Source: Candidatus Zambryskiibacteriota bacterium
Lineage (GTDB): Bacteria > Patescibacteriota > Minisyncoccia > Phycocordibacterales > DATDWN01
Reading direction: 5' to 3'
NCBI GenBank assembly: GCA_023267045.1
Contig: JAHFOB010000001.1
Span: 9,593-73,592 of the forward strand
DNA length: 64,000 nt
Notes under the pieces: model-generated
The model's database searches: none
What the model saw: the letters and a program-made list of their open reading frames with translations, nothing else
Told to the model about the DNA's origin: nothing
Translations under genes and position numbers: made by a program
Shown here: positions 2,841 to 63,399 of the stretch, one piece after another
How positions within the stretch are numbered: the first letter of the stretch is position 1
How the letters are laid out: every line of letters begins with the position of its first letter

Positions 2841-2841
2841 A

Positions 2842-2940
2842 TCCCGTTAGAGTTTTACTAAATTTGATTAGAGTAATAATTATATTAGAAAATCAGTGTA
2901 TAATAATTGGTATTAGAAAATAATGAAAAACTCTAACGGG
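2842..2940 (+). mobile_element. 99-bp miniature element bounded by inverted repeats TCCCGTTAGAGTTTTAC / GAAAAACTCTAACGGG, flanked by a 5-bp direct repeat ATGAA (copy 1)
   Basis: Read directly: the left arm (2842-2858) and right arm (2925-2940) are reverse complements. ATGAA lies at 2837-2841 and again at 2941-2945. The spacer holds an extended -10 box TGTATAAT (2897-2904) oriented toward the downstream gene. The original ATGA stop/start junction of the two flanking GT genes appears to have been split by the insertion. Confidence 0.6.
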
Positions 2941-4056
2941 ATGAAAGTACTTTCTATAAGCACAGACAGAAAATTGTTTGAAGAAGGAAGCGCTGTTTTA
3001 GAGCGTTCAAAAGATTATGCTTCCAAAATGGAGAAATTGCACATAATAGTTTTTTCCTTAAAAAGTCATAATTTAAAATTTAAAGAAGAAGGGAATTTGT
3101 ACATTTATCCAACAAATTCTTTGTCGAGATGGTTTTATGTGATGGATGCAGTGAAAATAGGAAAAAGTATTTTAAATAAAAGTTTTGTTATTTCCACCCA
3201 AGATCCATTTGAGACTGGTTTAGTCGGCTATAAACTTAAGAAAAAGTTTAATCTGCCACTCCAAATCCAAATACACACTGATTTCCTAAGTCCATATTTC
3301 AGAAATTCTTTCTTGAATTATATTCGTGTTTTTATTTCAAAATTTACTATTCCAAAAGCAGATTATGTTCGTGTTGTCAGTTCTTCAGTAGAAGATTCTC
3401 TAAGAAAAATCTCAACAAAAGTGAAAATTCAGATTTTGCCAGTTTTTGTTGATATTCCAAGAATAATGAATTTTCAACCAAAAAAAGATATAAAAAAAGA
3501 TTTTCCTCAATTTAAATTTAGTATTTTTATGGCTTCCCGGTTGACCAAAGAAAAGAGAATAGACACTGCACTCAAGGCTTTTAGAAAAGTAGTCGATGTC
3601 CACACAGAAGCTGGTTTGATTATTTCTGGATCAGGAAAAGAGGAAGGTAATCTAAAAAGTTTGGTAAAATCTCTAGGGCTTACAAAAAATGTTATTTTCA
3701 CTGGTTGGAATGATGGTTTGATTTCATATTATAAAACAGCAGATATTTTTCTACTTACTTCACAGTACGAGGGTTATGGTATGACTCTTGTGGAGGCTGG
3801 AGCATCGGGCTGTCCTATTGTTACGACAAAAGTTGGTCTGGCAAAAACAGATCTTTTTAAAAACGGAGCAAACTCTTTTGTCTGTTCAGTTTGGGATGTA
3901 AATTGTTTATCAGAATCTATTTTAAAACTTATTTCTAATCCCAATTTAAGACTATTGTTCAAAACAAAAATGCAGGATAGTATTAGAAATACAACTATTT
4001 CAAAAGAAGAATATGTGACAAAGTATGTCAGTTTGCTTCAGGATTTATTAAAATAA
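2941..4056 (+). CDS. Glycosyltransferase family 4
   Basis: Carries the E-x7-E motif EGYGMTLVEAGASGCPIVTT. The track start at 2923 adds MKNSNG, which is encoded by the element's right repeat; 2941 is the ATG contiguous with the gene body. Confidence 0.7.
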   Translation: MKVLSISTDRKLFEEGSAVLERSKDYASKMEKLHIIVFSLKSHNLKFKEEGNLYIYPTNSLSRWFYVMDAVKIGKSILNKSFVISTQDPFETGLVGYKLKKKFNLPLQIQIHTDFLSPYFRNSFLNYIRVFISKFTIPKADYVRVVSSSVEDSLRKISTKVKIQILPVFVDIPRIMNFQPKKDIKKDFPQFKFSIFMASRLTKEKRIDTALKAFRKVVDVHTEAGLIISGSGKEEGNLKSLVKSLGLTKNVIFTGWNDGLISYYKTADIFLLTSQYEGYGMTLVEAGASGCPIVTTKVGLAKTDLFKNGANSFVCSVWDVNCLSESILKLISNPNLRLLFKTKMQDSIRNTTISKEEYVTKYVSLLQDLLK

Positions 4057-42299: not shown

Positions 42300-42325
42300 G
42301 TTTCCCAGTAGTAGAGTTTTGGTGT

Positions 42326-42457
42326 TGCACAGATTACCGTGCGTATGAAATGACACCAAACTCACTACCGGGTTTGCCCCGTAGTGAAGTTGGCATTATG
42401 TGTATCACGCAGGGTAATCCCTGCCATGACAACTTCTACTACCGGGGTTTTTGTGTT
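42326..42457 (+). promoter_or_regulatory. Structured secA 5' leader: hairpin GTTTTGGTGT...ACACCAAAC, then a long terminator/attenuator-like hairpin CCCCGTAGTGAAG...CTTCTACTACCGGGG followed by a T-tract
   Basis: Inverted repeats read directly. TTTTTGTGTT immediately follows the second stem, and the secA ATG at 42474 follows. Confidence 0.35.
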
Positions 42458-42473
42458 AAAATATCCTCTATCT

Positions 42474-45038
42474 ATGTCAATTTTGACCAAGATATTTGGT
42501 GATGAATCAAGTAAGACTTTGAAGGAGATTCAGCCTTTAATTGTCAAAATAAACGCTCTAGAGAGCGTTATTTCTGGTTTGTCAGACGCAGAACTTAAAG
42601 ATAAAACTACAGAATTTAAAAAAAGATTGTCTTCCGGAGAAACTCTTGAAGATATTTTGCCAGAGGCTTTTGCTGTCGTTCGAGAAGCGTCAAAAAGATG
42701 TCGTGATCAAAGACATTTTGATGTTCAACTTTTGGGAGGAATTATCCTTCATCATGGCGAAATTGCTGAAATGAAAACTGGAGAAGGAAAAACTTTGGTG
42801 GCAACTCTTCCAGCTTATCTAAACTCACTGACTGGAAAAGGAGTTCATGTTGTAACTGTAAATGATTATCTTTCTCGGCGTGATGCCGTTTGGATGGGAG
42901 AGATTTATTCTTTTCTAGGAATTTCTGTTGGGGTTATAAATCATGATGAATCTTTTTTGTATGATCCAACTCATACCAAAGAATATGAACAGCTTGATAA
43001 AAAAAGAGATGAAGTAGGTTCTTTCAAAGTGGTCAATGAATTTCTCCGACCAGTTACTCGGCGTGAGGCATATCAAGCTGATATTACTTATGGAACAAAC
43101 AATGAGTTTGGTTTCGACTATTTACGTGACAATATTGAATATGAAGAGTCACGATTGCGTCAGCGTGAACCAAACTACGCTATTGTTGACGAAATCGACT
43201 CAATATTAATTGACGAAGCAAGAACTCCACTGATTATTTCTGCACCGACGTCAGAATCAGAGGATTTGTATAATACTTTTGCTCAAATTGCTACCAAACT
43301 AGAGAAAGGCGAGCACTATACTGTAGATGAAAAGTTTAAAAGTATTGCCTTAACTGACTCTGGAATAACCAAAGCTGAGGAACTTTTGGGTGTGGAAAAT
43401 ATATATACAGAGAAAGGAATAAAATATGTTCATCATTTGGAAACTGCTGTCAGAGCGGCGGCACATTTTCATAAGGATAAAGAATATGTTGTAAAAGATG
43501 GAGAGATCATTATTGTTGATGAATTTACCGGACGACTGCAGCCAGGTCGTAGATGGTCCGAAGGCTTGCACCAAGCCATAGAAGCAAAAGAACATGTGCC
43601 AATACAGAAAGAATCAAAAACTTTTGCTTCTGTTACATTCCAAAATTATTTCCGTTTGTATAAAAAACTTTCTGGTATGACTGGAACAGCTCAAACTTCA
43701 TCCGAAGAGTTTTACAAAGTTTACGGTCTCCACGTTATCTCGATTCCGACAAACAAGATTACCGCACGTCTTGATCACAACGATCTTATATTTCAAACCG
43801 AAAATGGAAAGTTCAAGGCAATTGCTCGAGAAGTAAAGTTACGTCACGCAAATGGCCAGCCTGTTTTGATTGGAACAGTTTCGATAGAAAAAAATGAAAT
43901 GCTTTCTGAATATTTGAAAGCTGAAGGCGTTCCGCACGAGATATTAAATGCCAAAAATCACGGAAGAGAAGGAGAGATTATTGCTCAAGCAGGCAGACCA
44001 TCTGCTGTAACTATTGCTACAAACATGGCAGGACGAGGAGTGGACGTAAAGCTCGGTGGAAATCCCGGAAGTATAGATGCCTACGAAAAAGTTAAATCTG
44101 TCAGTGGACTTTTTGTTCTTGGTACGGAGCGACATGATGCACGCAGAATAGACAATCAGCTTCGAGGACGATCTGGTAGACAAGGTGATCCGGGTGAAAC
44201 ACAGTTTTTCGTTTCTCTAGATGATCATTTGATGCGTGTTTTTGGCGGAGATTCAATAAAAAATATGATGGGTCGGCTTGGTATAAAAGAAGATGAGCCG
44301 ATAGAAAACCGTTTGATCACGCGTTCTCTTGAAAGTGCTCAAGAAAAAATAGAAGGACTTAATTTTGACGCACGAAAACATGTTTTGGAATTTGACGATG
44401 TTCTAAATTTTCAAAGAAAAATAATGTATGGAAGACGTAGAGAAATATTGATTGGCAATAGTCAGACTATAAAATCGTACGTTAATGAACTTTTGCAAAA
44501 CGCCGAAGAAAAAGATAGAAAAATCGTGGAAGATAAGTTGCAAAATATTGATCAAAATTACACAAATGCTCTTCGTGGAGCAATACTTCAGGCAATGGAC
44601 ATGTACTGGGTTGAGCACCTAGAAGTAATGGACTACATGAGATCTTCTGTAAACTTGCGCGCATACGGTCAACGTGATCCACTGGTCGAATACAAACGTG
44701 AAGGCTTGAAACTTTTCAAAGAAATGGAGATTTCTATTGGTAACGAGATTTTGAAATTGATTCCACAAATACAATCTAATAAAGTTTTTCTTGATACGCC
44801 AACTAAACTAGTGGAAACAAGACAGGATGCTGAAGCGCTTACGGCAGAAGCGCCAAAGGCCTCTGAATCCAGCAGAACTCCAGATGGTCACCCCAGTAGC
44901 AGAGCACAGCACGCTACAGGGCAAGGAAAAATTGGCAGAAATGATCCGTGTTTCTGCGGAGCGATTAATCCAGAAACAGGTAAAGTTTATAAATACAAAC
45001 AATGTGGTATGATTAACGCGCCTTATCACAAAAGTTAG
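42474..45038 (+). CDS. secA: Preprotein translocase ATPase SecA
   Basis: Clear SecA motifs: Walker A MKTGEGKT, DEAD-like IVDEIDSILIDEARTPLIIS, helicase motifs, and the C-terminal RNDPCFCG...KQCG zinc-finger-like tail. MSILTKIFG at 42474 is the conserved SecA N-terminus. The track start at 42384 is an upstream in-frame extension. Confidence 0.9.
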   Translation: MSILTKIFGDESSKTLKEIQPLIVKINALESVISGLSDAELKDKTTEFKKRLSSGETLEDILPEAFAVVREASKRCRDQRHFDVQLLGGIILHHGEIAEMKTGEGKTLVATLPAYLNSLTGKGVHVVTVNDYLSRRDAVWMGEIYSFLGISVGVINHDESFLYDPTHTKEYEQLDKKRDEVGSFKVVNEFLRPVTRREAYQADITYGTNNEFGFDYLRDNIEYEESRLRQREPNYAIVDEIDSILIDEARTPLIISAPTSESEDLYNTFAQIATKLEKGEHYTVDEKFKSIALTDSGITKAEELLGVENIYTEKGIKYVHHLETAVRAAAHFHKDKEYVVKDGEIIIVDEFTGRLQPGRRWSEGLHQAIEAKEHVPIQKESKTFASVTFQNYFRLYKKLSGMTGTAQTSSEEFYKVYGLHVISIPTNKITARLDHNDLIFQTENGKFKAIAREVKLRHANGQPVLIGTVSIEKNEMLSEYLKAEGVPHEILNAKNHGREGEIIAQAGRPSAVTIATNMAGRGVDVKLGGNPGSIDAYEKVKSVSGLFVLGTERHDARRIDNQLRGRSGRQGDPGETQFFVSLDDHLMRVFGGDSIKNMMGRLGIKEDEPIENRLITRSLESAQEKIEGLNFDARKHVLEFDDVLNFQRKIMYGRRREILIGNSQTIKSYVNELLQNAEEKDRKIVEDKLQNIDQNYTNALRGAILQAMDMYWVEHLEVMDYMRSSVNLRAYGQRDPLVEYKREGLKLFKEMEISIGNEILKLIPQIQSNKVFLDTPTKLVETRQDAEALTAEAPKASESSRTPDGHPSSRAQHATGQGKIGRNDPCFCGAINPETGKVYKYKQCGMINAPYHKS

Positions 45039-45182
45039 CGAAGTCCTGTACCGAGCTTCTTGCCGTGTACTGAACTTTGTTCTAGTACTGCGGTGCTCTG
45101 GTACTGGGGTGGTTCAGGAAAGAAGTATAAAAAGTGCGGTGAATTGAATACGGAAGAGCATCAGAAGAGGATGGTAAAGTAG
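45039..45182 (+). other. In-frame 47-codon open extension after the secA TAG stop, encoding a second SecA-type C-terminal tail (…PCTELC…GSGKKYKKCGELN…)
   Basis: Codon-by-codon read from TAG 45036-45038 to the next stop TAG 45180-45182. GSGKKYKKC matches the canonical SecA C-terminal metal-binding motif. Confidence 0.4.
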
Positions 45183-45209
45183 AAACTGAAAGATAATGCA
45201 TAGTTTGCT

Positions 45210-45238
45210 TTGACAATAATACCCCTAGGGGGTATCAT
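45210..45238 (+). promoter_or_regulatory. Copper-operon promoter with a CsoR operator palindrome ATACCCCTAGGGGGTAT in the spacer
   Basis: TTGACA (45210-45215), 17-bp spacer, then TATCAT (45233-45238). The perfect 17-bp palindrome at 45219-45235 resembles known CsoR boxes (TACCC-N-GGGTA). Confidence 0.6.
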
Positions 45239-45247
45239 TGTCTGTAT

Positions 45248-45514
45248 ATGAAAATAGATATAAAAAATAAAGCTATTAAGCGTTTGAAAATTGCTGAAGG
45301 ACAAATAAGAGGAGTTCAATCTATGGTTACTAATGAGAAGTATTGTATAGATATTATTACTCAAGTTTCTGCCATAAAAGAAGCTTTGTCAGGTATTGAA
45401 GATTTAATTTTGGAAAATCACATATCTACACACGTAGTTCACCAAATAAAGCATGGTAATGAAAAGAAAGCTACGGAAGAGATTCTAAAAGTCTATAAAC
45501 TCAAAAGAAAATAA
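45248..45514 (+). CDS. csoR: CsoR/RcnR-family metal-sensing transcriptional repressor
   Basis: RLKIAEGQIRGVQSMV...YCIDIITQVSAIKEAL matches the CsoR (DUF156) signature, including the Cys and His ligand positions. Confidence 0.7.
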   Translation: MKIDIKNKAIKRLKIAEGQIRGVQSMVTNEKYCIDIITQVSAIKEALSGIEDLILENHISTHVVHQIKHGNEKKATEEILKVYKLKRK

Positions 45515-45515
45515 T

Positions 45516-47852
45516 ATGAGCAATACTAAAACTTATAAAGTTAAGGGTATGCATTGTGCATCATGCGCAAGTATTATCGAAAAAATATTCAAAAAAACTC
45601 CAGGTGTTCATAACGCAGAAGTAAATTATGCCACCGAGACTGCAAAGGTTTCTTTTGATGAATCCAAAACAAATCCACTCCATCTCTCTAAAAAAATCGA
45701 ACCACTCGGATATTCTTTAAACATCCCAACGGCACAATCAATGCATATGTCAGAGAGTGAACATGTGGCACATTTAGGCCTCAACCAATCAAAAGCTGAG
45801 AAACTTTCTGAACTTAAAGATATGAGGATAAAAGTTTTGTCTGCTTTACCTCTTGCAGTATTTAGTATTTTTATAATGGGCTGGGACACTTTGATTCAAT
45901 TCAAGACAGTCCCAGAAATGCCTATTATATGGAATGAGTTTTTTCATCATTTATTGCCTATATTTGCCACTTACACACTTTTTATTGTTGGTAAACCATA
46001 TTTATTGGGGTTTTATCGCTTTGTACGTTTTGGAAAAGCAAATATGGATACTCTTATTGGTATCGGTACTTCCGTAGCTTTTCTTTATAGTTTTGTAGTA
46101 ACTGCTTTTCAGGAGACTTTGAAACCTTTCATAAATGTAAATCAAACATATTACGATGTAACAATTGTTGTCATTACTTTTATTGCTCTTGGTAAATATC
46201 TTGAGACAAGATCAAAACTTAAAACTGGTGATGCCATAGAGAAACTCCTTAATCTACAGGCCAAGACAGCTTTGGTGGTGAGAGACCAAAAAGAAATCGA
46301 GATTCCAATTGGCCAAGTTGTTCATGGAGATTTGATTATTGTAAAACCAGCGGCTCTAATACCAGTAGATGGTGTTATAACCGAAGGGTCATCATACGTT
46401 GATGAATCAATGCTCACAGGAGAGTCTATGCCGATAGGAAAGAACATTGGAGACAATGTGATTTCTGGAACAATGAATACATCTGGCTCGTTTACTTTCA
46501 AAGCTACAAAAGTCGGTTCGGAAACTATGCTAGCTCGTATAGTAAAAATGGTAGAAGAAGCGCAAGGAAGTCGCGCTCCAATACAAGCACTGGCTGATAA
46601 AATATCTAGCATATTTGTACCTATCGTTTTGGCACTTTCTTTTGTTTCTTTGAGTGCATGGTTATTTATTGGGACATCATATTTCGGTTTCTCACAAGCT
46701 CTTTCGTTAGGCCTAGTATCATTTGTCGGCATTCTTGTCATAGCTTGTCCTTGCGCTCTTGGACTTGCCACTCCTACAGCAATTATTGTTGGAGTAGGTA
46801 AGGGAGCGAAAGAGGGCATTTTGATTAAAGATGCTGGTACATTAGAGAAACTTGGAAAGGTTGATATCGTGGTTGTAGATAAAACAGGGACGTTGACCAA
46901 AGGAAAACCTGAACTTGTATCAATCAAAAATTTTTCCCGAGGGGAAAATAATTTAAATGACGATGAGCTTGTTACTATTTTAGCTTCGTTAGAAAAAAAA
47001 TCAGAACATCCAATTGCTCTGGCTATTATTTCTTCAGCAAAGGAAAAAGAACTTCCTATTTATTCTGTGGAAAAATTTGAGGCAATTAAAGGTAAGGGTT
47101 TGAAAGGGATTATTAATAATGTTCAGTATTTTGTCGGTAATGCAAAACTTGTCAAAGATCTGGGCATTTCGTTTGATACAGAGTCATTTGTAAAAGATAC
47201 TAAGGAAGGCAAAACTCCTGTTATTTTAGCAACAAAAGAAAAAGTACTCGGGATCGCATATGTGGCAGACACAATCAAGACTGAAACAAAAGATGCAATA
47301 GTAAATCTCCATAAACTTGGAATAAAAATAGTCATGCTTACAGGGGACGATAGAAATACTGCGGAGTTTATTGCAAAACAAATCGGTATTGACGTTCGTC
47401 CCGAGTCCTCAGCCCCGAGGGATGAAGTAGTGGCAGAAGTTATGCCTGAAGACAAACTTAACAAAATAAAAGAATTACAATCAGAAGGAAAAATCGTGGC
47501 CATGGTTGGAGATGGAGTAAATGACGCGCCAGCTCTTGCTCAAGCTGATGTTGGTATCGCTATGTCAACGGGGATTGATGTTGCCATTGAAAGCGCTGGT
47601 ATTACACTCTTGCATGGAGATATCTCAAAACTTGTAAAAGCAATAAAACTTTCAAGGATAACAATGCGAGGTATTAAACAAAATCTTTTCTGGGCTTTTG
47701 CCTATAACATCATAGGCATTCCGCTTGCAGGAGGATTGTTTTATCCAATTTTCGGTTGGCTACTTTCTCCAGTTTTTGCTGGCTTTGCAATGGCCATGTC
47801 CAGTGTTTCGGTCGTATCAAATTCACTCCGTATTAAAGCTAAAAAAATATAA
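45516..47852 (+). CDS. copA: Copper-translocating P1B-type ATPase
   Basis: N-terminal HMA GMHCASCA; CPC motif (IACPCALGLATP); phosphorylation motif DKTGTLT; the HP motif region; and the hinge GDGVNDAPAL. Confidence 0.9.
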   Translation: MSNTKTYKVKGMHCASCASIIEKIFKKTPGVHNAEVNYATETAKVSFDESKTNPLHLSKKIEPLGYSLNIPTAQSMHMSESEHVAHLGLNQSKAEKLSELKDMRIKVLSALPLAVFSIFIMGWDTLIQFKTVPEMPIIWNEFFHHLLPIFATYTLFIVGKPYLLGFYRFVRFGKANMDTLIGIGTSVAFLYSFVVTAFQETLKPFINVNQTYYDVTIVVITFIALGKYLETRSKLKTGDAIEKLLNLQAKTALVVRDQKEIEIPIGQVVHGDLIIVKPAALIPVDGVITEGSSYVDESMLTGESMPIGKNIGDNVISGTMNTSGSFTFKATKVGSETMLARIVKMVEEAQGSRAPIQALADKISSIFVPIVLALSFVSLSAWLFIGTSYFGFSQALSLGLVSFVGILVIACPCALGLATPTAIIVGVGKGAKEGILIKDAGTLEKLGKVDIVVVDKTGTLTKGKPELVSIKNFSRGENNLNDDELVTILASLEKKSEHPIALAIISSAKEKELPIYSVEKFEAIKGKGLKGIINNVQYFVGNAKLVKDLGISFDTESFVKDTKEGKTPVILATKEKVLGIAYVADTIKTETKDAIVNLHKLGIKIVMLTGDDRNTAEFIAKQIGIDVRPESSAPRDEVVAEVMPEDKLNKIKELQSEGKIVAMVGDGVNDAPALAQADVGIAMSTGIDVAIESAGITLLHGDISKLVKAIKLSRITMRGIKQNLFWAFAYNIIGIPLAGGLFYPIFGWLLSPVFAGFAMAMSSVSVVSNSLRIKAKKI

Positions 47853-53537: not shown

Positions 53538-53752
53538 AGGGGTGCTCCCTGTCTGGTCCCTACAAGTTCTCTGTTTTGAGATACTTTGTCCTCACCACGC
53601 TCTGGATGATAACCTAGGATTAACTCATCACCCAAGGTGGAAGCCTTTGCGAGTTACGCGCCTCGTTGGCGGTCTTGGATTTTCTCTCGTCAAGAGACTT
53701 ATGAGGGATCTGATCGCGCGATCAAGATTAACCTTAAAGGAGCACCCCGTTT
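53538..53752 (+). ncRNA. Candidate ~215-nt structured RNA closed by a terminal helix GGGGUGCUCC / GGAGCACCCC. Identity unknown; it could be a 6S-like or other regulatory RNA.
   Basis: GC about 48% against a ~33% background. The 10-bp terminal helix and internal imperfect complementary strands were read directly (UCCCUACAAGUUCUCU vs AGAGACUUAUGAGGGA). The track ORFs across it are low-complexity and lack start context. Confidence 0.3.
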
Positions 53753-53819
53753 CATTCTAAGGGTCTCTAATTTTTTGTCAACTTATTTACTTTTCTTCAT
53801 ATTTTGCTACTATAATCTC

Positions 53820-54056
53820 ATGTCACCAGAGGAAAGAGAGCTCCTTAAAAGAACAGCTGATCTTGCAGAAGATAACAATAAAATGTTGCGCTCGATGCAA
53901 CGTTCTATGCGTTTACAAAGGATAATGACTCTATTTTATTGGGTTTTTATAATAGGCTCGGCCATAGGAGCGTATTATCTTATTCAGCCATATATAGATA
54001 GTATTAAAGGGGCATATGGAGGTGCTAGTAGCGGTTTCAAGGATCTTTTTAACTAA
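53820..54056 (+). CDS. Small membrane protein (78 aa) with an N-terminal coiled/charged segment and one TM helix
   Basis: MSPEERELLKRTADLAEDNNKMLRSMQRSMRLQRIMTLFYWVFIIGSAIGAYYLI. The ATG is preceded by TATAAT. The upstream part of track ORF 53637 overlaps the GC-rich structured region and is probably not translated. Confidence 0.35.
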   Translation: MSPEERELLKRTADLAEDNNKMLRSMQRSMRLQRIMTLFYWVFIIGSAIGAYYLIQPYIDSIKGAYGGASSGFKDLFN

Positions 54057-54503: not shown

Positions 54504-54579
54504 CATACCACATGCCGAGGTAACTCAGTTAGCAGAGTGCTTCCCTGAAGAGGAAGAAGTCGCCAGTGCAACTCTGGCC
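54504..54579 (+). tRNA. tRNA-Phe (anticodon GAA)
   Basis: Manual fold: acceptor GCCGAGG/CCTCGGC, D-stem ACTC/GAGT, anticodon stem CTTCC/GGAAG with loop CTGAAGA, T-stem GCCAG/CTGGC, discriminator A, and an encoded CCA. Confidence 0.8.
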
Positions 54580-56132
54580 CTCGGCACCATAATCCGACTT
54601 TCGTCGGAAGAACCAACGGATGCGTGGGACGCGCGAAGTGCGTCCCACGGAGTTCCGCCTGAATCTGCGAGGGAATCTGTCAAAAATGAATCTGAATTTG
54701 GAGTGCAAGCACTCACGGTTTTTTCGCGGAGGAGGAGGTTCGAGCCAAAGACTTTTTTGGCAGCAACCTTTTTATTCAAAAGGTTGCTATCCAATGCAAT
54801 TTTTTCCATATTCTGGGCTTCTTTTATCCATTCTGACATCGGTTCGAGCCAATGTTTTTGCTTTTGTTCATTCCGAGATATTTCTTCTTCCAGCGACTTT
54901 TTCTCGGATAACAATTTTGCTTTTTGTTCACGATATACTTCTTTTTCTACATCTTGGTCTAAATATCCATCTAAAAGTCGCTGGAGCTTCACAGTAATAT
55001 CTTTTATACGATTTTGATTTTTTAGAACAAAAGCAGAAACAGATTGGGCGGATTCCGTTTTGTCGTTTTCTAAACGACCGAACATATATTCCGCCCAATC
55101 TTGTGGCAAAGAAACTTTTTGAAGAAGTGATGAAATTTGTTCGTCCAAGACTTCCTGGCGAATACAGGGTTCAGGACACTTAATATCTCGTCGCTTTTTG
55201 GAACAGTGATAGTAAGTGTAATAATGTTCTTTACCACTGACTTGTTTCTTCACCCTGTATTCGCCAGTGATCATCATTCCGCAAGTTCCACAGGATAACA
55301 AACCACAATATGCTTGGGGTTCATTTTTCTGTTTGTGTCTTGGACGACCTCTTTGCTTCATCACTTCTTGGACTCTATCAAAAAGTTTCTTGTCCACGAT
55401 TGGCTCAAACTTTCCTTCATAGACTTCACCAGAATATCTAAAGTGTCCATAGTAAAAAGGATTAGACAGAATAAAAGTAGCTCTGGTTCTATGGATTCTC
55501 TTTCCGTGTTTTGTTAAAAGATTGTGCTTCGCCAAAAACATACCGATAGTATTAAGAGTTTGATTACCTTGTGAATACAGTTCGAACGCTTGTCTTATAA
55601 CAGGCGCGGATTTTTTGTCCACCACGATTGTCTTTGTTCTACTATCGTTTATATATCCCACTGGTGAAAGTCCTGGATATTCTCCGCGCCTAACTTTTTG
55701 GCGAAGTCCTCTTTTGGTATTTTCGGAAAGAGAATCCACATAGTATTTACTTTGTCCGAAAGCCATGTTGAGCATGAATTTACCTTGACTCGTAGAATCA
55801 CACCAAAAAGTAGGAAACTTCAAGCTCGCAAGTTTCCCTGTGTCGAGGAGGTATATTATTTTTCCACCATCAATACTATTTCTTGCGAGACGATCCGGAT
55901 GCCAAGAGAGGATAGAATCTGCATCGCCATTTTCGATACATCTCATCATTTCGTTGAAAATAGGACGACCTGGAATCTTGGCAGATTGTTTTTCTATAAA
56001 CTCAAGGGCGATGTTCAGATTTTCTCGCTTGGCATAGTCTCGCAATTCGTTGAGCTGTGCCTCAATCGAAAGAACTTGTTTGTCCTCGACATCTGTTGAC
56101 TTGCGAGCGTATAAAAAGAATTTTTGTTCCAT
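54525..56132 (-). CDS. Large serine recombinase (resolvase/integrase family)
   Basis: N-terminal catalytic domain FFLYARKSTDVEDKQVLSIEAQ (Ser nucleophile context) ... WHPDRLARN, a recombinase domain, and Cys-rich zinc-ribbon CGTCGMMITGEYRVKK...CSKKRRDIKC. M at 56132 is the likely start. The 3' end of the ORF runs through IR-A and antisense through tRNA-Phe with no stop until 54525, so the true C-terminus is uncertain. Confidence 0.75.
   Translation of the reverse strand: MEQKFFLYARKSTDVEDKQVLSIEAQLNELRDYAKRENLNIALEFIEKQSAKIPGRPIFNEMMRCIENGDADSILSWHPDRLARNSIDGGKIIYLLDTGKLASLKFPTFWCDSTSQGKFMLNMAFGQSKYYVDSLSENTKRGLRQKVRRGEYPGLSPVGYINDSRTKTIVVDKKSAPVIRQAFELYSQGNQTLNTIGMFLAKHNLLTKHGKRIHRTRATFILSNPFYYGHFRYSGEVYEGKFEPIVDKKLFDRVQEVMKQRGRPRHKQKNEPQAYCGLLSCGTCGMMITGEYRVKKQVSGKEHYYTYYHCSKKRRDIKCPEPCIRQEVLDEQISSLLQKVSLPQDWAEYMFGRLENDKTESAQSVSAFVLKNQNRIKDITVKLQRLLDGYLDQDVEKEVYREQKAKLLSEKKSLEEEISRNEQKQKHWLEPMSEWIKEAQNMEKIALDSNLLNKKVAAKKVFGSNLLLREKTVSACTPNSDSFLTDSLADSGGTPWDALRASHASVGSSDESRIMVPRARVALATSSSSGKHSAN
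54622..54756. repeat. Inverted repeat IR-A (~135 bp, left copy) flanking the serine recombinase gene
   Basis: About 85% identical to the reverse complement of 56185-56317. It contains the hairpins CGTGGGACGC-gcgaagt-GCGTCCCACG and GAGTGC-aa-GCACTC, and ends in a T-arm-like GGAGGAGGTTCGAGCC. Confidence 0.7.
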
Positions 56133-56184
56133 ATGTTTGTAGTATAGCAAAAATTCTTTTTGTAAAGAAAAGTAAAAATTGTAT

Positions 56185-56317
56185 TGGATTCGAACCTCCT
56201 CCTCCAAAACAAATTAGTGCGCGCTTGCGCGCCAGATTCAGATTCATTTTTGGCGGATTCCATCGCAGATTCAGGCGGGAACCCTTGGGATGCACTTCGT
56301 GCGTCCCACATTATGGC
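56185..56317. repeat. Inverted repeat IR-A' (right copy, about 50 bp upstream of the recombinase start)
   Basis: Reverse complement of 54622-54756. The hairpins are conserved with compensatory changes (GCGCGC-aa-GCGCGC against GAGTGC-aa-GCACTC). Confidence 0.7.
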
Positions 56318-56334: not shown

Positions 56335-56575
56335 GTTCTATTTTGGTGTGTCTTTACGACTTCGCTCGAACTTATTTCATTAAAACTGTTTAAGTGGTGA
56401 ATCTGACAATGAATTCCGTCACGGCTCGGCATCCGCTCCAGAACACGCTGGAAAGCGTGTTCTTCCGCTTCTGCCTTACCGTGTCCGCCCTCGCACCCAT
56501 CGCTTCCAATCCTAAATCTGTTTTGCGCGGGATTTCTTTTTTCGGAATGGGCGATTGGTTCTCGGGCTACTTGCC
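56335..56575. repeat. Inverted repeat IR-B (~240 bp, left copy), GC-rich, with internal hairpin GAACACGCT-ggaa-AGCGTGTTC and a terminal hairpin plus T-tract
   Basis: Near-identical to the reverse complement of 59355-59598. The identical 61-aa track ORFs (56394-56579 + and 59347-59547 -) are a consequence of this repeat. Confidence 0.75.
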
Positions 56576-59354: not shown

Positions 59355-59598
59355 TCCCTTTAAGGAGAAACCCGCCCGAGAACCAATCGCCCATTCCGAA
59401 AAAAGAAATCCCGCGCAAAACAGATTTAGGATTGGAAGCGATGGGTGCGAGGGCGGACACGGTAAGGCAGAAGCGGAAGAACACGCTTTCCAGCGTGTTC
59501 TGGAGCGGATGCCGAGCCGTGACGGAATTCATTGTCAGATTCACCACTTAAACAGTTTTAATGAAATAAGTTCGAGCGAAGTCGTAAAGACACACCAT
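59355..59598. repeat. Inverted repeat IR-B' (right copy)
   Basis: Reverse complement of 56335-56575. The match breaks at TTCTCGGGC on both sides. Confidence 0.75.
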
Positions 59599-59663
59599 AA
59601 TCAAAAACCATCCTGAGTTTATCGAAGGATGGTTTTTTGATTGCGGTGCCAAATATGGAAGTT

Positions 59664-60900: not shown

Positions 60901-63033
60901 TTACTTAGGCCACATCGATATCATAAGCATCTCTTTTTCTTTGCCAGGAAGGTTTTGCCAGATTTCTTCTGTTATAAAAGGCATGAACGGGTGTAGTATC
61001 GTAAGGCAAGTTTCCAGAATATGAGTCAATGTATATTGTATCGATGAAACCACTTCAGGATCTTCACTTTTTAATTTTTCTTTTGATTGTTCTATTATTT
61101 TATCAGCAAATGTGTGCCAAACATAGTGATAAAGTTTTTCTGTAGCTAGATAAAATCTAAAGTTGTCCATATCACTTGTAACATCTTGAACTAAAAGATT
61201 TAGTTCATCGAGCGTAGTTTGGTCACTACTTTCGATTTTTCCGGGTCTTTTAGCATCCCAGTTTTCGGTATTTGATAATACAAATCTAGTTATGTTCCAA
61301 ATCTTATTAGCGAAAAGTTTATAAGCCTTAACTTTGCTTTCTTGCAGTGCTAGATCTGTTCCTGGCGTATTTCCGACAATGAGAGCCATTCGCAAAGCAT
61401 CTGTTCCGTATTTTGAAGTCAGATCGAGTGGATTTACGACATTACCTTTTGACTTACTCATTTTTTTACCTTTGGCGTCGTTTACAAGTCCATGAAGATA
61501 GACAGTATTGAAAGGTACTTTGCCAGAAAGATAGAGACCAAAAATGACCATACGTGGGACCCATTTGAAAATCAAGTCATGTCCAGTTTCCATAACGTCT
61601 GTCGGATAATACTTTTCAAAATCTTTTCCATCTGGGTAGCCGGTGACAAATAGTGGCCATTGCCCAGACGAGAACCATGTATCAAATGTGTCAGAGTCTT
61701 TTATCCAACCGTCACCTTCCGGTTTTTCTTTGCTTGCTGTAGCTTCATTTTCTTTGAGCCATGCTGGTATAGGTATACCCCAAACTATCTGACGAGAAAT
61801 ATTCCAATCTATTGTATTGTTCATCCAATATCTAAAGATTTTTTCGTAGTTATCAGGTATAAATTTCACTTCCCCTCTATCAACTGATTCCAGAGCTTTT
61901 TTTGCCAGAGGTTCCATTTTAACAAACCATTGATCTTTTATTTGAGGTTCGATTATTGTATTGCATTTGTAGCATCTTTTAACAACATTTTTATATTTGT
62001 CATCTATTTTTACAAGCAGTCCTTTTTCTTTCAATTTATCAACTATTTTTGGCCGAGCTTCTTTTATATTTATTCCAGCAAATTCTCCCGCAACAGGCAA
62101 AAGTTTCCCACGCCAGTCGATTATTTGTTCAACATCCAAGTTATATTTTTGAGCTAGCTCAAAATCCACCTGCGAATGCCATGGTGTGATAGTCATAACT
62201 CCCGTTCCAAACTCCATATCAACGACTGGGTCTTTTATGACAGTTGCTTCGATCGGGCCATTTATCCATTCGACCATCATTTTCTGTCCATGTTTATATT
62301 CGGAATATCTTTTGTCGTCTGGATGCATTACCACATATTTATCAGCAAATTTTGTTTCTGGCCTAACAGTTCCTATTTCAAATGGCCCGTATTTGAAATA
62401 ATAAAAAGGATTTATCTCTTCAACAGATTCAGTTTCAACTTCAGATAGGGAAGTCTGATGTTTTGAACACCAGTTCACAGTTCGTTTGCCTCTGTAAACT
62501 AAACCATCGTTATACATTTTTATAAACGTATCTTGAGTTTTTTTTACAATGTCTGGATCAAGTGTAAATTTTTCACGCGACCAATCACATGAAGCCCCAA
62601 GAGATCTGACTTGAGTCTCCATATTCTTTTTATTCTCTAAAGTAAAATCTAGAATTTCTTTGTATAAATCTTTTGGATCCATGCCAAATCTAGATCTCCC
62701 TTCTTTCTCAAGTTTCTTTTCATAAACAACTTGTGTTTCAAATCCAGCATGGTCTGCACCAGGAATCCAAAGACTTCTAAATCCCTGCATTCTTTTGAAA
62801 CGAGTCAGTATGTCTTCAATAGTTATAAACAAAGCATGTCCAGCATGGAGGTTGCCGTTTGCATTAGGTGGGGGCATAACTATTGTAAACGGTTCAGCTT
62901 TTGAGTTAGTGTTGTTGTCTGGACTAAAAAATCCACTGTTTTCCCACATACTGTAGATCCGATTTTCCGTATTTTCTGGTTTGTATGGGGATAAGAATAT
63001 TTCTTTCATCCCGTTAGAGTTTTTCATAATCAA
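60901..63033 (-). CDS. valS: Valyl-tRNA synthetase (compact form lacking the long C-terminal coiled-coil)
   Basis: PFTIVMPPPNANGNLHAGHA (HIGH region, with the ValRS-type PPPN context) and KMSKSKGN. The track start at 63033 includes MIMKNSNG encoded by the 99-bp element. MKEIFL at 63009 is the ATG contiguous with the gene body. Confidence 0.8.
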   Translation of the reverse strand: MIMKNSNGMKEIFLSPYKPENTENRIYSMWENSGFFSPDNNTNSKAEPFTIVMPPPNANGNLHAGHALFITIEDILTRFKRMQGFRSLWIPGADHAGFETQVVYEKKLEKEGRSRFGMDPKDLYKEILDFTLENKKNMETQVRSLGASCDWSREKFTLDPDIVKKTQDTFIKMYNDGLVYRGKRTVNWCSKHQTSLSEVETESVEEINPFYYFKYGPFEIGTVRPETKFADKYVVMHPDDKRYSEYKHGQKMMVEWINGPIEATVIKDPVVDMEFGTGVMTITPWHSQVDFELAQKYNLDVEQIIDWRGKLLPVAGEFAGINIKEARPKIVDKLKEKGLLVKIDDKYKNVVKRCYKCNTIIEPQIKDQWFVKMEPLAKKALESVDRGEVKFIPDNYEKIFRYWMNNTIDWNISRQIVWGIPIPAWLKENEATASKEKPEGDGWIKDSDTFDTWFSSGQWPLFVTGYPDGKDFEKYYPTDVMETGHDLIFKWVPRMVIFGLYLSGKVPFNTVYLHGLVNDAKGKKMSKSKGNVVNPLDLTSKYGTDALRMALIVGNTPGTDLALQESKVKAYKLFANKIWNITRFVLSNTENWDAKRPGKIESSDQTTLDELNLLVQDVTSDMDNFRFYLATEKLYHYVWHTFADKIIEQSKEKLKSEDPEVVSSIQYTLTHILETCLTILHPFMPFITEEIWQNLPGKEKEMLMISMWPK

Positions 63034-63107
63034 TTTTTAATTTTAGTCTATATTTTGCGCGATAGATAATACATATCCACATTCGTTATAAGTAAAACTC
63101 TAACGGG
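63009..63107 (-). mobile_element. 99-bp inverted-repeat element, copy 3, immediately upstream of valS, flanked by ATGAA direct repeats (minus-strand sense)
   Basis: Plus-strand arms TCCCGTTAGAGTTTTTC (63009-63025) and GTAAAACTCTAACGGG (63092-63107). TTCAT lies at 63004-63008 and again at 63108-63112. Same length as the other two copies. Confidence 0.55.
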
Positions 63108-63399
63108 ATTCATGTAATAAGATTAACATATAGACGTCGTAGTTAGTAGGTTTTGTTAAAAAAGACTATTTTCATATAAAGGACATAGCATATCGACTCT
63201 AAATCTAATGTCCTTTATAAGTCTTTTCTAAAATAAGTCGCAAAATAATGTCTTAATAGAATCTAAAGGACATCAATTTTGGCATAAAAGACAAATATTA
63301 AAATACAGCTCAGATTAGCCATATAATAAAAATCACTAAAATTTTCTAGCTATTGACGACATCGCAAAGCAAGTGTATCCTTTACGAACTAAAGTTTTT

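What the first reader, a model, noticed from the sequence alone, without database searches (positions are those of the whole stretch)
44930..45182. SecA stop codon followed in-frame by a second canonical SecA zinc-finger tail
The annotated SecA ends ...RNDPCFCGAINPETGKVYKYKQCGMINAPYHKS-TAG. Translating in the same frame past TAG gives 47 sense codons, RSPVPSFLPCTELCSSTAVLWYWGGSGKKYKKCGELNTEEHQKRMVK, ending at a second TAG. GSGKKYKKC is the hallmark of the SecA C-terminal SecB/ribosome-binding zinc finger. Three readings are possible: (i) programmed TAG readthrough producing a longer isoform; (ii) a recent nonsense mutation or tandem duplication of the tail; (iii) an assembly error. The segment 44820-45130 is also markedly more GC-rich than the rest of secA, which suggests the tail region was acquired by recombination.
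Basis: seen in the sequence. Interest (0 to 1): 0.6.

Follow-up and report, generated by a model that had tools for sequence, protein, structure and literature searches.

The report
Displaced SecA tail behind inserted tail cassette
The second zinc-finger tail after the secA stop codon is the gene's original tail, pushed downstream when about 150 bases carrying a different tail, its stop codon and a conserved hairpin were inserted; the same swap recurs in many ultra-small (CPR) bacteria.

Summary
secA ends at TAG 45036-45038, and 47 in-frame sense codons follow, ending in GSGKKYKKCGELNTEEHQKRMVK-TAG.

Programmed readthrough is not supported:
- 23 related loci carry the same two-tail layout, with the second tail spread over all three frames. 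The closest homologue, L121, has it in +1 with stops between.
- TAG is an ordinary stop in this window (12 of 55 gene-like ORFs).

The evidence points to an insertion of about 153 nt (44961-45110):
- It splits one SEC-C motif between CFCG and SGKKYKKC.
- It supplies a long-loop tail (AINPETGKVYKYKQCGMINAPYHKS), a stop codon and a 72-nt hairpin.
- The displaced piece matches the tail used by the nearest SecA relatives, which carry a single tail.
- The relatives' hairpin family shows compensatory base changes and matches no Rfam family.
- Between the window and L121, the inserted tail is much less diverged at synonymous sites (0.83 codon identity) than the secA body (0.46) or the displaced tail (0.39). 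The insert therefore looks laterally acquired.
- Some loci carry three tails in series.

How the insert moves, and what the hairpin does, are unknown. A recombination origin is supported. Nonsense mutation, local duplication and assembly error are not.

The parts
42474..45038 (+). secA coding sequence. The start is taken at MSILTKIFG; the mechanical ORF starts at GTG 42384. It ends at TAG 45036-45038.
   Evidence: ORF. (Pfam SecA_DEAD, SecA_PP_bind, P-loop_SecA, SecA_SW).
44820..44933 (+). Hypervariable, GC-rich (54%) flexible linker of the resident SecA. It is unrelated in sequence even to close relatives.
   Evidence: composition. (linker not alignable to L121, L122 or L009).
44934..44960 (+). 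Resident conserved motif GRNDPCFCG, the first half of the SEC-C metal-binding motif. CFC is the variant of the window's own clade, so the left border of the insert lies at TGC GGA (44955-44960).
   Evidence: CFC in L001, L002, L004-L006, L011, L014, L016, L021, L027, L028; CPC in nearly all long-loop tails. (SEC-C profile positions 1-8)..
44961..45038 (+). Inserted alternative tail module AINPETGKVYKYKQCGMINAPYHKS plus its own stop TAG. This is a long-loop finger: CxC-X15-C-G-X7-H.
   Evidence: same tail in L009, L042 and many others. (91% nucleotide identity to L121, against 59-62% for the body).
45039..45110 (+). 72-nt hairpin spacer, with core stems 45044-45108. It belongs to a conserved hairpin family that always lies between the new stop and the displaced tail.
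   Evidence: MFE -31.8 kcal/mol, z = -2.9. (homologous hairpins in L121, L122, L007; the basal stem differs from L122 by two compensatory pairs). (covariation in the long form). (no Rfam family).
45111..45182 (+). Displaced ancestral tail remnant GSGKKYKKCGELNTEEHQKRMVK plus its original stop TAG (the second half of the SEC-C motif and the end module). It is probably untranslated.
   Evidence: SEC-C profile positions 8-16. (matches the tails of nearest relatives L027, L001, L003, L004). (frame not conserved in homologous loci).

Best explanation
The window comes from a Patescibacteria (Parcubacteria/Paceibacteria-like) genome. Its secA originally ended ...GRNDPCFC-GSGKKYKKCGELNTEEHQKRMVK*, as in its nearest relatives.

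A discrete segment of about 153 nt was inserted exactly between CFCG and SGKK. It has three parts:
- an alternative long-loop metal-binding tail (AINPETGKVYKYKQCGMINAPYHKS);
- that tail's own stop codon;
- a 72-nt structured hairpin.

SecA is now made with the new tail and terminates at TAG 45036-45038. The old distal tail is left behind the hairpin as an untranslated orphan, and its in-frame position here is a coincidence.

The unit 'tail + stop + hairpin' is a recurrent, laterally spreading cassette in CPR bacteria. It occurs with different tail modules on the same hairpin base, in front of different displaced tails, and sometimes in series.

Shown: the split motif, the homology of each piece, the recurrence, the lack of frame conservation, the conserved hairpin structure in the relatives' long form, and the lower synonymous divergence of the inserted tail.

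Inferred: that the remnant is not expressed, and that the cassette moves between genomes.

Unknown: whether it moves by site-specific insertion or by recombination at the conserved blocks CxCG and KxC, and whether the hairpin acts as a recombination site or as an mRNA 3' structure.
For: Split motif: Pfam SEC-C positions 1-8 fall on the attached tail and positions 8-16 on the extension.

Relatives:
- 80 GTDB relatives show four tail types.
- On a SecA-body tree the window sits among type-A (GSGKKYKKCGELNTEEHQ) genes. In every case checked, the remnant matches the tail of the nearest single-tail relatives: the window with L027/L001/L003/L004, L007 with L005/L013, L042 with L041, and L036/L076 with L043.
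- In the unbiased GTDB sample, remnants follow 6 of 24 long-loop tails and 0 of 56 short-loop tails (p = 4.5e-4).

Recurrence:
- A metagenome scan found at least 15 further distinct loci with new tail, hairpin and remnant.
- Three tails in series occur in L101 and L110.

Frame: 6/7/8 loci in frames 0/+1/+2. L121, the closest homologue, is +1 with stops in frame 0.

Hairpin (relatives' long form, 9 loci): 23 pairs, 94% paired, 13 pairs with compensatory changes (0 of 500 shuffles reach this), about 47% paired in slid controls. The window and L122 share the hairpin base apart from two compensatory pairs, yet carry different tails (B and D).

Lateral origin:
- Window versus L121, codon identity at conserved residues: body 0.46, inserted tail 0.83, remnant 0.39. 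Fisher p = 0.002 (tail vs body) and 0.008 (tail vs remnant); remnant versus body is not different.
- In L111/L115, L086/L091 and L036/L076, the cassette or its hairpin spacer is 83-100% identical while the secA bodies are 40-87% identical by 30-nt window.
- Borders are sharp.

Code: TAG is a normal stop in the window (12 of 55 ORFs).
Against: - No near-identical genome with the empty site was found, so the insertion event is inferred, not seen.
- Most remnants are intact ORFs that end at their native stop and differ between loci mainly by synonymous changes. This fits recent independent displacement but also continued selection.
- No recombinase, transposase or homing nuclease was tied to the cassette.
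- The window's hairpin scores only 11.6 bits with the model built from the long form, and its fold is only moderately better than shuffles (z = -2.9).
- The lower synonymous divergence of the tail could also reflect constraint on the nucleotide sequence.
- All comparison data are metagenome assemblies, and reads for the window were not available.
Confidence: 0.72

Rival explanations
1. The downstream tail is still functional. The cassette array would be a switchable reservoir: site-specific or repeat-mediated excision and re-insertion of 'tail + hairpin' units (integron-like or shufflon-like) changes which metal-binding tail SecA carries. Alternatively, an RNA-level event removes the insert.
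For: - Remnants are mostly intact, end at native stops, and show many synonymous but few non-synonymous differences: 11 synonymous against 5 non-synonymous for window/L121, and 10 against 5-7 for L086/L089/L099.
- Arrays of three tails occur.
- The hairpin structure is under selection, with conserved base sequences.
- The same hairpin carries different tails.
- Cassette borders are sharp.
Against: - Several remnants are frameshifted, truncated or interrupted (L104, L036/L076, L084, L085, L095, L083/L108).
- No attC-type core sites are present, and no recombinase is linked to the cassette.
- The remnant pattern is equally explained by their history as functional tails before a recent displacement. 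Remnant synonymous divergence equals that of the body.
- No excised allele was seen.
Confidence: 0.14
2. Programmed TAG readthrough, or ribosomal bypass of the hairpin, makes a longer SecA isoform carrying both tails.
For: - In the window the 47 codons after TAG are open and in frame.
- A strong hairpin starts 5-8 nt after the stop.
- 5 of the 6 two-tail loci in the GTDB-based sample, the window included, use TAG.
Against: - The frame is not conserved (6/7/8 in frames 0/+1/+2).
- L121, the closest homologue, has stops in frame 0.
- The stop codon varies between TAA, TGA and TAG.
- There are no matched take-off and landing codons: AGT before the stop in the window, against GGT/TCA at the remnant.
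- The product would hold a complete finger plus a half finger without CxC.
- No fused double tails occur among 240 database proteins.
- TAG is an ordinary stop.
Confidence: 0.03
3. A local event in this genome only: a tandem duplication of the tail followed by divergence, or a nonsense mutation.
For: Two tail-like segments lie in direct orientation 150 nt apart.
Against: - The attached tail is 33/34 residues identical to L009 and 91% nucleotide-identical to L121. It ends at the same residue as in those genomes, so it was not derived in place.
- The hairpin between the tails is homologous to hairpins in other genomes.
- The second segment lacks the CxC part, so it is a split motif, not a duplicate.
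Confidence: 0.03
4. An assembly artefact that joins two strain variants of the secA 3' end in tandem.
For: The window is probably from a metagenome-assembled genome. Strain variants with different tails exist in nature (L012 and L013 are very close yet have different tails).
Against: - The same order (new tail, hairpin, old tail) occurs in more than 20 independent assemblies from different projects and assemblers, some recovered identically three times (L089 = L098 = L102).
- The hairpin spacer is present in neither simple variant, so a chimera of two single-tail alleles cannot create it.
Confidence: 0.03

Closest known systems
SecA C-terminal metal-binding domain (MBD; SEC-C motif, CXCX8C[H/C]) (PMC6620043; bioRxiv 10.1101/613315)
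   Same: - Both pieces belong to this domain.
- The resident CFC plus the displaced GSGKKYKKC restores CXCX8C, with the conserved Ser and Tyr.
- It sits at the C-terminus after a flexible linker.
   Different: - The expressed tail has a 15-residue loop, Ala instead of the conserved Ser, and Gly after the third Cys with a His 8 residues later.
- It scores below Pfam's threshold.
- Interchangeable tail modules, and tail swapping by insertion, are not described in the two SecA-tail papers read. A further search listed no paper on the subject by title or abstract.
Displaced 'orphan' C-terminal modules of polymorphic toxins (CDI CdiA-CT, Rhs-CT); from my own knowledge, not tested here
   Same: - A conserved motif marks the border of a variable C-terminus.
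- New C-terminal sequences insert at that border and push the old ones downstream.
- The old ones remain as promoterless, start-less fragments, sometimes in arrays.
   Different: - There is no toxin or immunity pair.
- The host gene is an essential housekeeping ATPase.
- The unit is only about 150 nt and carries a conserved hairpin.
Integrative elements that replace the 3' end of their target gene (prophage e14 in icd; islands in tRNA/tmRNA genes); from my own knowledge
   Same: The insertion keeps the target gene functional by bringing a substitute 3' end, and the original 3' end is left as a duplicate fragment on the far side.
   Different: Here there is no element body and no integrase between the two ends, only a 72-nt hairpin. 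The substitute end is a different variant of the domain, not a near copy.
Integron gene cassettes with attC hairpins; from my own knowledge
   Same: - The unit is a short coding piece followed by an imperfect hairpin of variable length, with a conserved base and a compensating stem.
- New units sit nearest the expressed position.
- Arrays occur.
   Different: - The attC core sites (RYYYAAC/GTTRRRY) are absent.
- The insertion is in frame inside a gene rather than at attI.
- No IntI is known here.
Translational bypass in phage T4 gene 60, and stop-codon readthrough signals; from my own knowledge
   Same: A stop codon is followed closely by a stable hairpin and, further on, by coding sequence that would complete the protein.
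   Different: There are no matched take-off and landing codons, no conserved frame or distance, and the stop codon is variable.

Membership tests
SecA metal-binding domain / SEC-C motif (PF02810; CXCX8C[H/C]) | CXC pair at the C-terminus after a flexible linker | tested here: met
   CFC at 44949-44957 within GRNDPCFCG. SEC-C profile positions 1-8 match.
SecA metal-binding domain / SEC-C motif (PF02810; CXCX8C[H/C]) | Eight residues to the third Cys, with the conserved Ser and Tyr (E. coli S889, Y893; 10.1101/613315) | tested here: not met
   The expressed tail has GAINPETGKVYKYKQ (15 residues), with Ala where Ser is expected. The resident CFC plus the displaced GSGKKYKK-C would meet it.
SecA metal-binding domain / SEC-C motif (PF02810; CXCX8C[H/C]) | Fourth ligand His or Cys directly after the third Cys | tested here: not met
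   Both tails have C-G, with a His 8 residues later (CGMINAPYH, CGELNTEEH). The functional type-A tails of the relatives share this C-G arrangement.
SecA metal-binding domain / SEC-C motif (PF02810; CXCX8C[H/C]) | Score above Pfam's gathering threshold (20.4 bits) | tested here: not met
   14.7 bits for the attached tail and 12.6 bits for the extension. Each covers half of the profile.
Programmed stop-codon readthrough | The downstream extension is in frame and open in related genes | tested here: not met
   Frames 0/+1/+2 = 6/7/8 among 21 loci. L121 is +1 with stops in frame 0 and L122 is +2.
Programmed stop-codon readthrough | Conserved stop codon identity and context | tested here: not met
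   TAG in the window, L009, L121, L042, L007 and L036; TAA or TGA in most metagenome loci.
Programmed stop-codon readthrough | TAG reassigned, or a suppressor tRNA present | tested here: not met
   TAG ends 12 of 55 gene-like ORFs. Only tRNA-Arg(CCU) and tRNA-Phe(GAA) lie in the window; the rest of the genome was not seen.
Translational bypass (T4 gene 60 type) | Matching take-off and landing codons flanking the gap | tested here: not met
   In the window, AGT-TAG lies before the gap and GGT GGT TCA at the landing. This is inconsistent across loci.
Integron cassette / attC | Core sites R'' RYYYAAC and R' GTTRRRY at the hairpin base | tested here: not met
   Hairpin bases read GCGRAGTCC... and ...GGRGGAYGG or ...CTGGGGTGG.
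Integron cassette / attC | Integron integrase and attI next to the array | not tested
   ORFs beside secA are a Wzy_C/TPR protein, a CsoR-like repressor and a P-type ATPase. No systematic search of the related loci was made.
Orphan C-terminal modules of polymorphic toxins | A conserved border motif, with displaced C-terminal fragments downstream | tested here: met
   GRNDPCxCG is the border. Remnants lie downstream, with arrays in L101 and L110.
Orphan C-terminal modules of polymorphic toxins | Toxin domain with a cognate immunity gene | tested here: not met
   The tails are 23-34-residue metal-binding motifs. No gene lies between or after them.
REP / MITE-type repeated palindromic element | Many copies per genome in intergenic regions | tested here: inconclusive
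   There is no second copy in the 64-kb window. One copy lies outside secA, in L100 416-512. Whole genomes were not scanned.
Intrinsic transcription terminator | GC-rich stem-loop followed by a run of T | tested here: not met
   No T run follows the hairpin. The scan reports only the operator palindrome at 45219-45235.

The most novel reading that the evidence does not exclude
CPR bacteria may possess a dedicated cassette-exchange system for the SecA metal-binding tail. In it, short 'tail + stop + hairpin' units are inserted site-specifically at the CxC|G position of the SEC-C motif. The hairpin would serve as the recombination site, and the displaced tails would be kept as a silent reservoir that can be re-expressed after excision. 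This would amount to an integron-like or shufflon-like mechanism acting in frame on an essential housekeeping gene.
Probability: 0.15. Interest if true: 0.85.

Novelty: new variant of a known kind. Interest (0 to 1): 0.62.

Why it matters
The SecA C-terminal metal-binding domain contacts ribosomes (and SecB where it is present), tunes SecA autoinhibition and binds zinc or iron (PMC6620043; 10.1101/613315). It is normally treated as a slowly evolving, vertically inherited motif.

In two large CPR groups it instead behaves as a set of interchangeable modules. These are swapped by insertion of a tiny cassette that carries a conserved, unclassified hairpin and leaves the old tails as fossils.

This matters in three ways:
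- Annotation: such 'double tails' should not be read as readthrough or as errors.
- SecA biology: natural long-loop variants (CxC-X15-C...H) could be tested for metal and ribosome binding.
- Mobile-DNA biology: a unit of about 150 nt inserts into an essential gene without breaking it, and its mechanism is unknown and now testable.

Tried and rejected
- Rfam, gathering threshold on the whole window and E-value scans of 44900-45260 and of L091: no family for the spacer.
- tRNA/tmRNA scan: nothing near the site.
- Second copy of the window's hairpin in the 64 kb: none. The R1 hit at 53965-54041 lies inside the gene-like ORF 53637-54056 and is weak (11.9 bits, E = 2.7), so it looks like chance.
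- Exact look-up of the window's SecA in public assemblies: not on record.
- Two protein searches for near-identical relatives with an empty site returned mostly fragments, at most 70% identical. L119 and L120, whose tail equals L113's remnant, are only about 70-77% identical in the body, so they do not form a filled/empty pair.
- Viral contigs: neither the long-loop tail pattern nor the hairpin core was found.
- MAFFT alignment of the short or variable hairpins (A2) was not usable because the apical parts differ in length. I compared them pairwise instead.
- The 2.1 kb between two tail copies in L108/L083 holds small metabolic and membrane genes and no obvious recombinase. This was judged by eye, not by HMM.
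- The conserved sequence downstream of L013 and L034 turned out to be a small zinc-ribbon gene, not a cassette.
- I considered that the hairpin arms are a degenerate inverted copy of the GAYCCNTGYCCNTGYGG motif. Similarity of 44-61% is too weak to claim.
- L091/L113: 1.25 kb is 100% identical with unrelated flanks, but L113's left flank is not secA. A chimeric contig cannot be excluded, so it was not used as main evidence.
Full report
**1. The observation**

- The secA ORF (42384/42474-45038, + strand) ends ...GRNDPCFCGAINPETGKVYKYKQCGMINAPYHKS with TAG at 45036-45038.
- The same frame stays open for 47 codons (45039-45179) and ends GSGKKYKKCGELNTEEHQKRMVK-TAG.
- Pfam confirms a full SecA: DEAD, PP_bind, P-loop and SW domains.
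- The 19-position SEC-C motif is split. Profile positions 1-8 match NDPCFCG in the attached tail, and positions 8-16 match GSGKKYKKC in the extension.
- So the second piece is the distal part of a finger whose CxC lies upstream, not a second complete finger.
- TAG is an ordinary stop here: 34 TAA, 12 TAG and 9 TGA among 55 tightly packed gene-like ORFs.
- GC content is 54% in the linker (44820-44957), 35% in the attached tail coding part, 53% in the 72-nt spacer and 40% in the distal piece.

**2. Relatives**

A scan of one genome per GTDB species gave 80 loci, L001-L080, labelled Parcubacteria, Paceibacterota, Zambryskibacteria and similar. Their SecA tails fall into four types:

- A: CxCGSGKKYKKCGELNTEEHQ...
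- B: CxCGAINPETGKVYKYKQCGMINAPYHKG
- C: the canonical CxCGSGKKYKKCHGK
- D: CxCGAKKSDGVPVKYKNCHGRNE

On a tree of the SecA body the types are scattered.

- The window (type B) sits among type-A genes (L027, L001, L003, L004, L008, L010).
- It keeps the CFC variant of that clade, whereas nearly all B tails have CPC.
- The left border of foreign sequence therefore lies at TGC GGA (44955-44960).

Five other GTDB loci have the window's layout of a B or D tail, a stop, a spacer and then a distal piece of an A or C tail: L007, L009, L042, L036 and L076.

- In each, the distal piece is the tail type of the nearest single-tail relatives: L007 with L005/L013, L042 with L041, L036/L076 with L043.
- Remnants follow 6 of 24 long-loop tails and 0 of 56 short-loop tails (p = 4.5e-4).

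**3. More examples**

The one metagenome scan used the pattern for MINAPYH[KN] and returned 38 stretches.

- Most true secA ends among them carry the same layout.
- There are at least 15 further distinct loci, with remnants such as GSGKKWKKCHDLN*, GSGKKYKKCHYPELPA*, GSGLKWKKCGLINAPQHQG* and GSGKKYKKCGLINTPEHQQ....
- These belong to Microgenomates/Gottesmanbacteria-like SecAs, where CHYP-type tails are the common native form.
- L101 and L110 carry three tails in series, and in L093, L101 and L110 a short-loop tail has displaced a B tail. Replacement therefore goes both ways.
- Some remnants are decayed: frameshifted in L104, truncated in L036/L076/L085/L112, interrupted in L095.
- The tails of 240 database proteins show every combination of loop module and end module, and no fused double tail.

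**4. Readthrough is not supported**

- The remnant lies in frame 0, +1 or +2 in 6, 7 and 8 of 21 distinct loci.
- L121 (Hainich groundwater) is the closest homologue of the window's whole arrangement. It has the same tail, a clearly homologous hairpin and the remnant GSGKKYKACGSINSEEHQKRTVK* in frame +1, with stops in frame 0. L122 is in +2.
- The stop codon varies between TAG, TAA and TGA.
- There are no matched take-off and landing codons for a gene-60-type hop.
- The in-frame state of the window is therefore a one-in-three coincidence.

**5. The spacer is a conserved hairpin**

- In all loci the interval between the new stop and the remnant folds into a strong hairpin. It starts a few bases after the stop with GCG[AGT]AG[TC]CC and ends at the first Gly codon of the remnant.
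- The window's hairpin folds at -31.8 kcal/mol, z = -2.9.
- Nine long-form copies give a rod of 23 pairs, 94% paired, with 13 pairs showing changes on both sides. No shuffle of 500 reaches this, and slid controls give about 47% paired.
- G.U cells outnumber C.A cells 12 to 4 on the sense strand, which favours a structure read on the sense strand.
- No Rfam family matches, and no T run follows the hairpin.
- A model of the long form found one copy outside secA, in an intergenic region of L100 just upstream of a YdjC-like gene. It found none elsewhere in the window.
- The window and L122 share the hairpin base except for two compensatory pairs (GTACCGAGC/GCTCTGGTAC against GTAGTGAGC/GCTCTACTAC). 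Yet L122 carries a D tail and a type-C remnant.
- L036 and L076 share a 97%-identical spacer behind a B tail and a D tail respectively.

**6. The insert looks laterally acquired**

Window versus L121:

| Region | Codon identity at conserved residues | Count |
|---|---|---|
| secA body | 0.46 | 45/98 |
| Inserted tail | 0.83 | 19/23 |
| Remnant | 0.39 | 7/18 |

- Tail versus body gives p = 0.002, tail versus remnant p = 0.008, and remnant versus body is not different.
- The alignment shows near identity from TGCGGAGCG through the hairpin to ...CTGGG[GA]TGG. Synonymous differences then begin at the first remnant codon.
- L111/L115 are 100% identical from the motif to mid-hairpin, with an unrelated linker upstream and about 88% identity downstream.
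- L086/L091 are 83-90% identical over the cassette and 40-77% over the body.
- The remnants therefore diverged with their host genes, and the cassette is younger or far more constrained.
- The sharp right border, with no tract of shared remnant sequence, is not what plain homologous recombination predicts. This keeps a site-specific mechanism open.
- The mosaic of modules also shows that recombination occurs at the conserved blocks CxCG and KxC.

**7. Conclusion**

- The window's second tail is the ancestral distal tail of this secA.
- It was displaced by an insertion of about 153 nt (44961-45110, counting one duplicated Gly codon) that provides an alternative long-loop tail, its stop codon and a hairpin.
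- Readthrough, nonsense mutation and local duplication are not supported. An assembly error is unlikely but could not be tested on reads.
- How the cassette moves, what the hairpin does, and whether the downstream tails are only fossils or a usable reservoir all remain open.
- The two SecA-tail papers I read describe the motif CXCX8C(H/C), the conserved Ser and Tyr, and losses of the domain, but not modular swapping. A further search listed no paper on the subject by title or abstract.

Noticed in passing
window 54525-56207 (-), 56340-56567 and 59374-59601: A 560-aa large serine recombinase (Resolvase + Recombinase + Zn_ribbon_recom) abuts tRNA-Phe (54514-54589). Next to it, a perfect 228-nt inverted repeat (100% complementary) flanks a 2.8-kb segment. 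That segment holds a PsbP-like protein, a SocA/Panacea-domain protein and one unassigned ORF. It could be an invertible segment or an integrated element.
   Followed up: partly
window 45210-45238, 45248-45514, 45516-47852: A sigma-70-like promoter (TTGACA-17-TATCAT, 11/12) overlaps a perfect palindrome, ATACCCCTAGGGGGTAT. It lies just upstream of a CsoR-family metal-sensing repressor and an HMA-domain P-type ATPase, so this is a likely copper-efflux operon with its operator, directly after the displaced SecA tail.
   Followed up: partly
window 2841-2942 and 62998-63119: Two copies of a hairpin repeat with the core ATCCCGTTAGAGTTTT lie 60 kb apart.
   Followed up: no
window 42300-42450: A GC-rich (46-50%) island lies in the AT-rich intergenic region just upstream of secA. 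No Rfam family matches above noise. It may be a leader or an unclassified RNA.
   Followed up: partly
L036 and L076 (both DATDXX01); L012 and L078 (both CAZDPS01): Some Paceibacteria MAGs hold two secA loci with different tails and different downstream genes. They are either paralogues or mixed strains.
   Followed up: no
L113 1-360 and 1660-4166, compared with L091: L113 is 100% identical to L091 over 1.25 kb (the 3' third of secA plus the cassette), but both flanks are unrelated and its left flank is not secA. It is either a chimeric contig or a partial secA copy fused to another ORF.
   Followed up: partly
L100 416-512 (-): A copy of the secA-spacer hairpin family (60 bits with model R1) lies in a non-secA intergenic region, 13 nt upstream of the start of a YdjC-like gene. 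Its basal stem differs (ATCCGCC/GGCGGAT).
   Followed up: partly
L108 2791-2813 and 4899-4921 (also L083): A decayed SEC-C tail (DCPCGNGGKWKKRGMINAPYHKG*) lies 2.1 kb downstream of the secA stop, with five small genes in between.
   Followed up: partly
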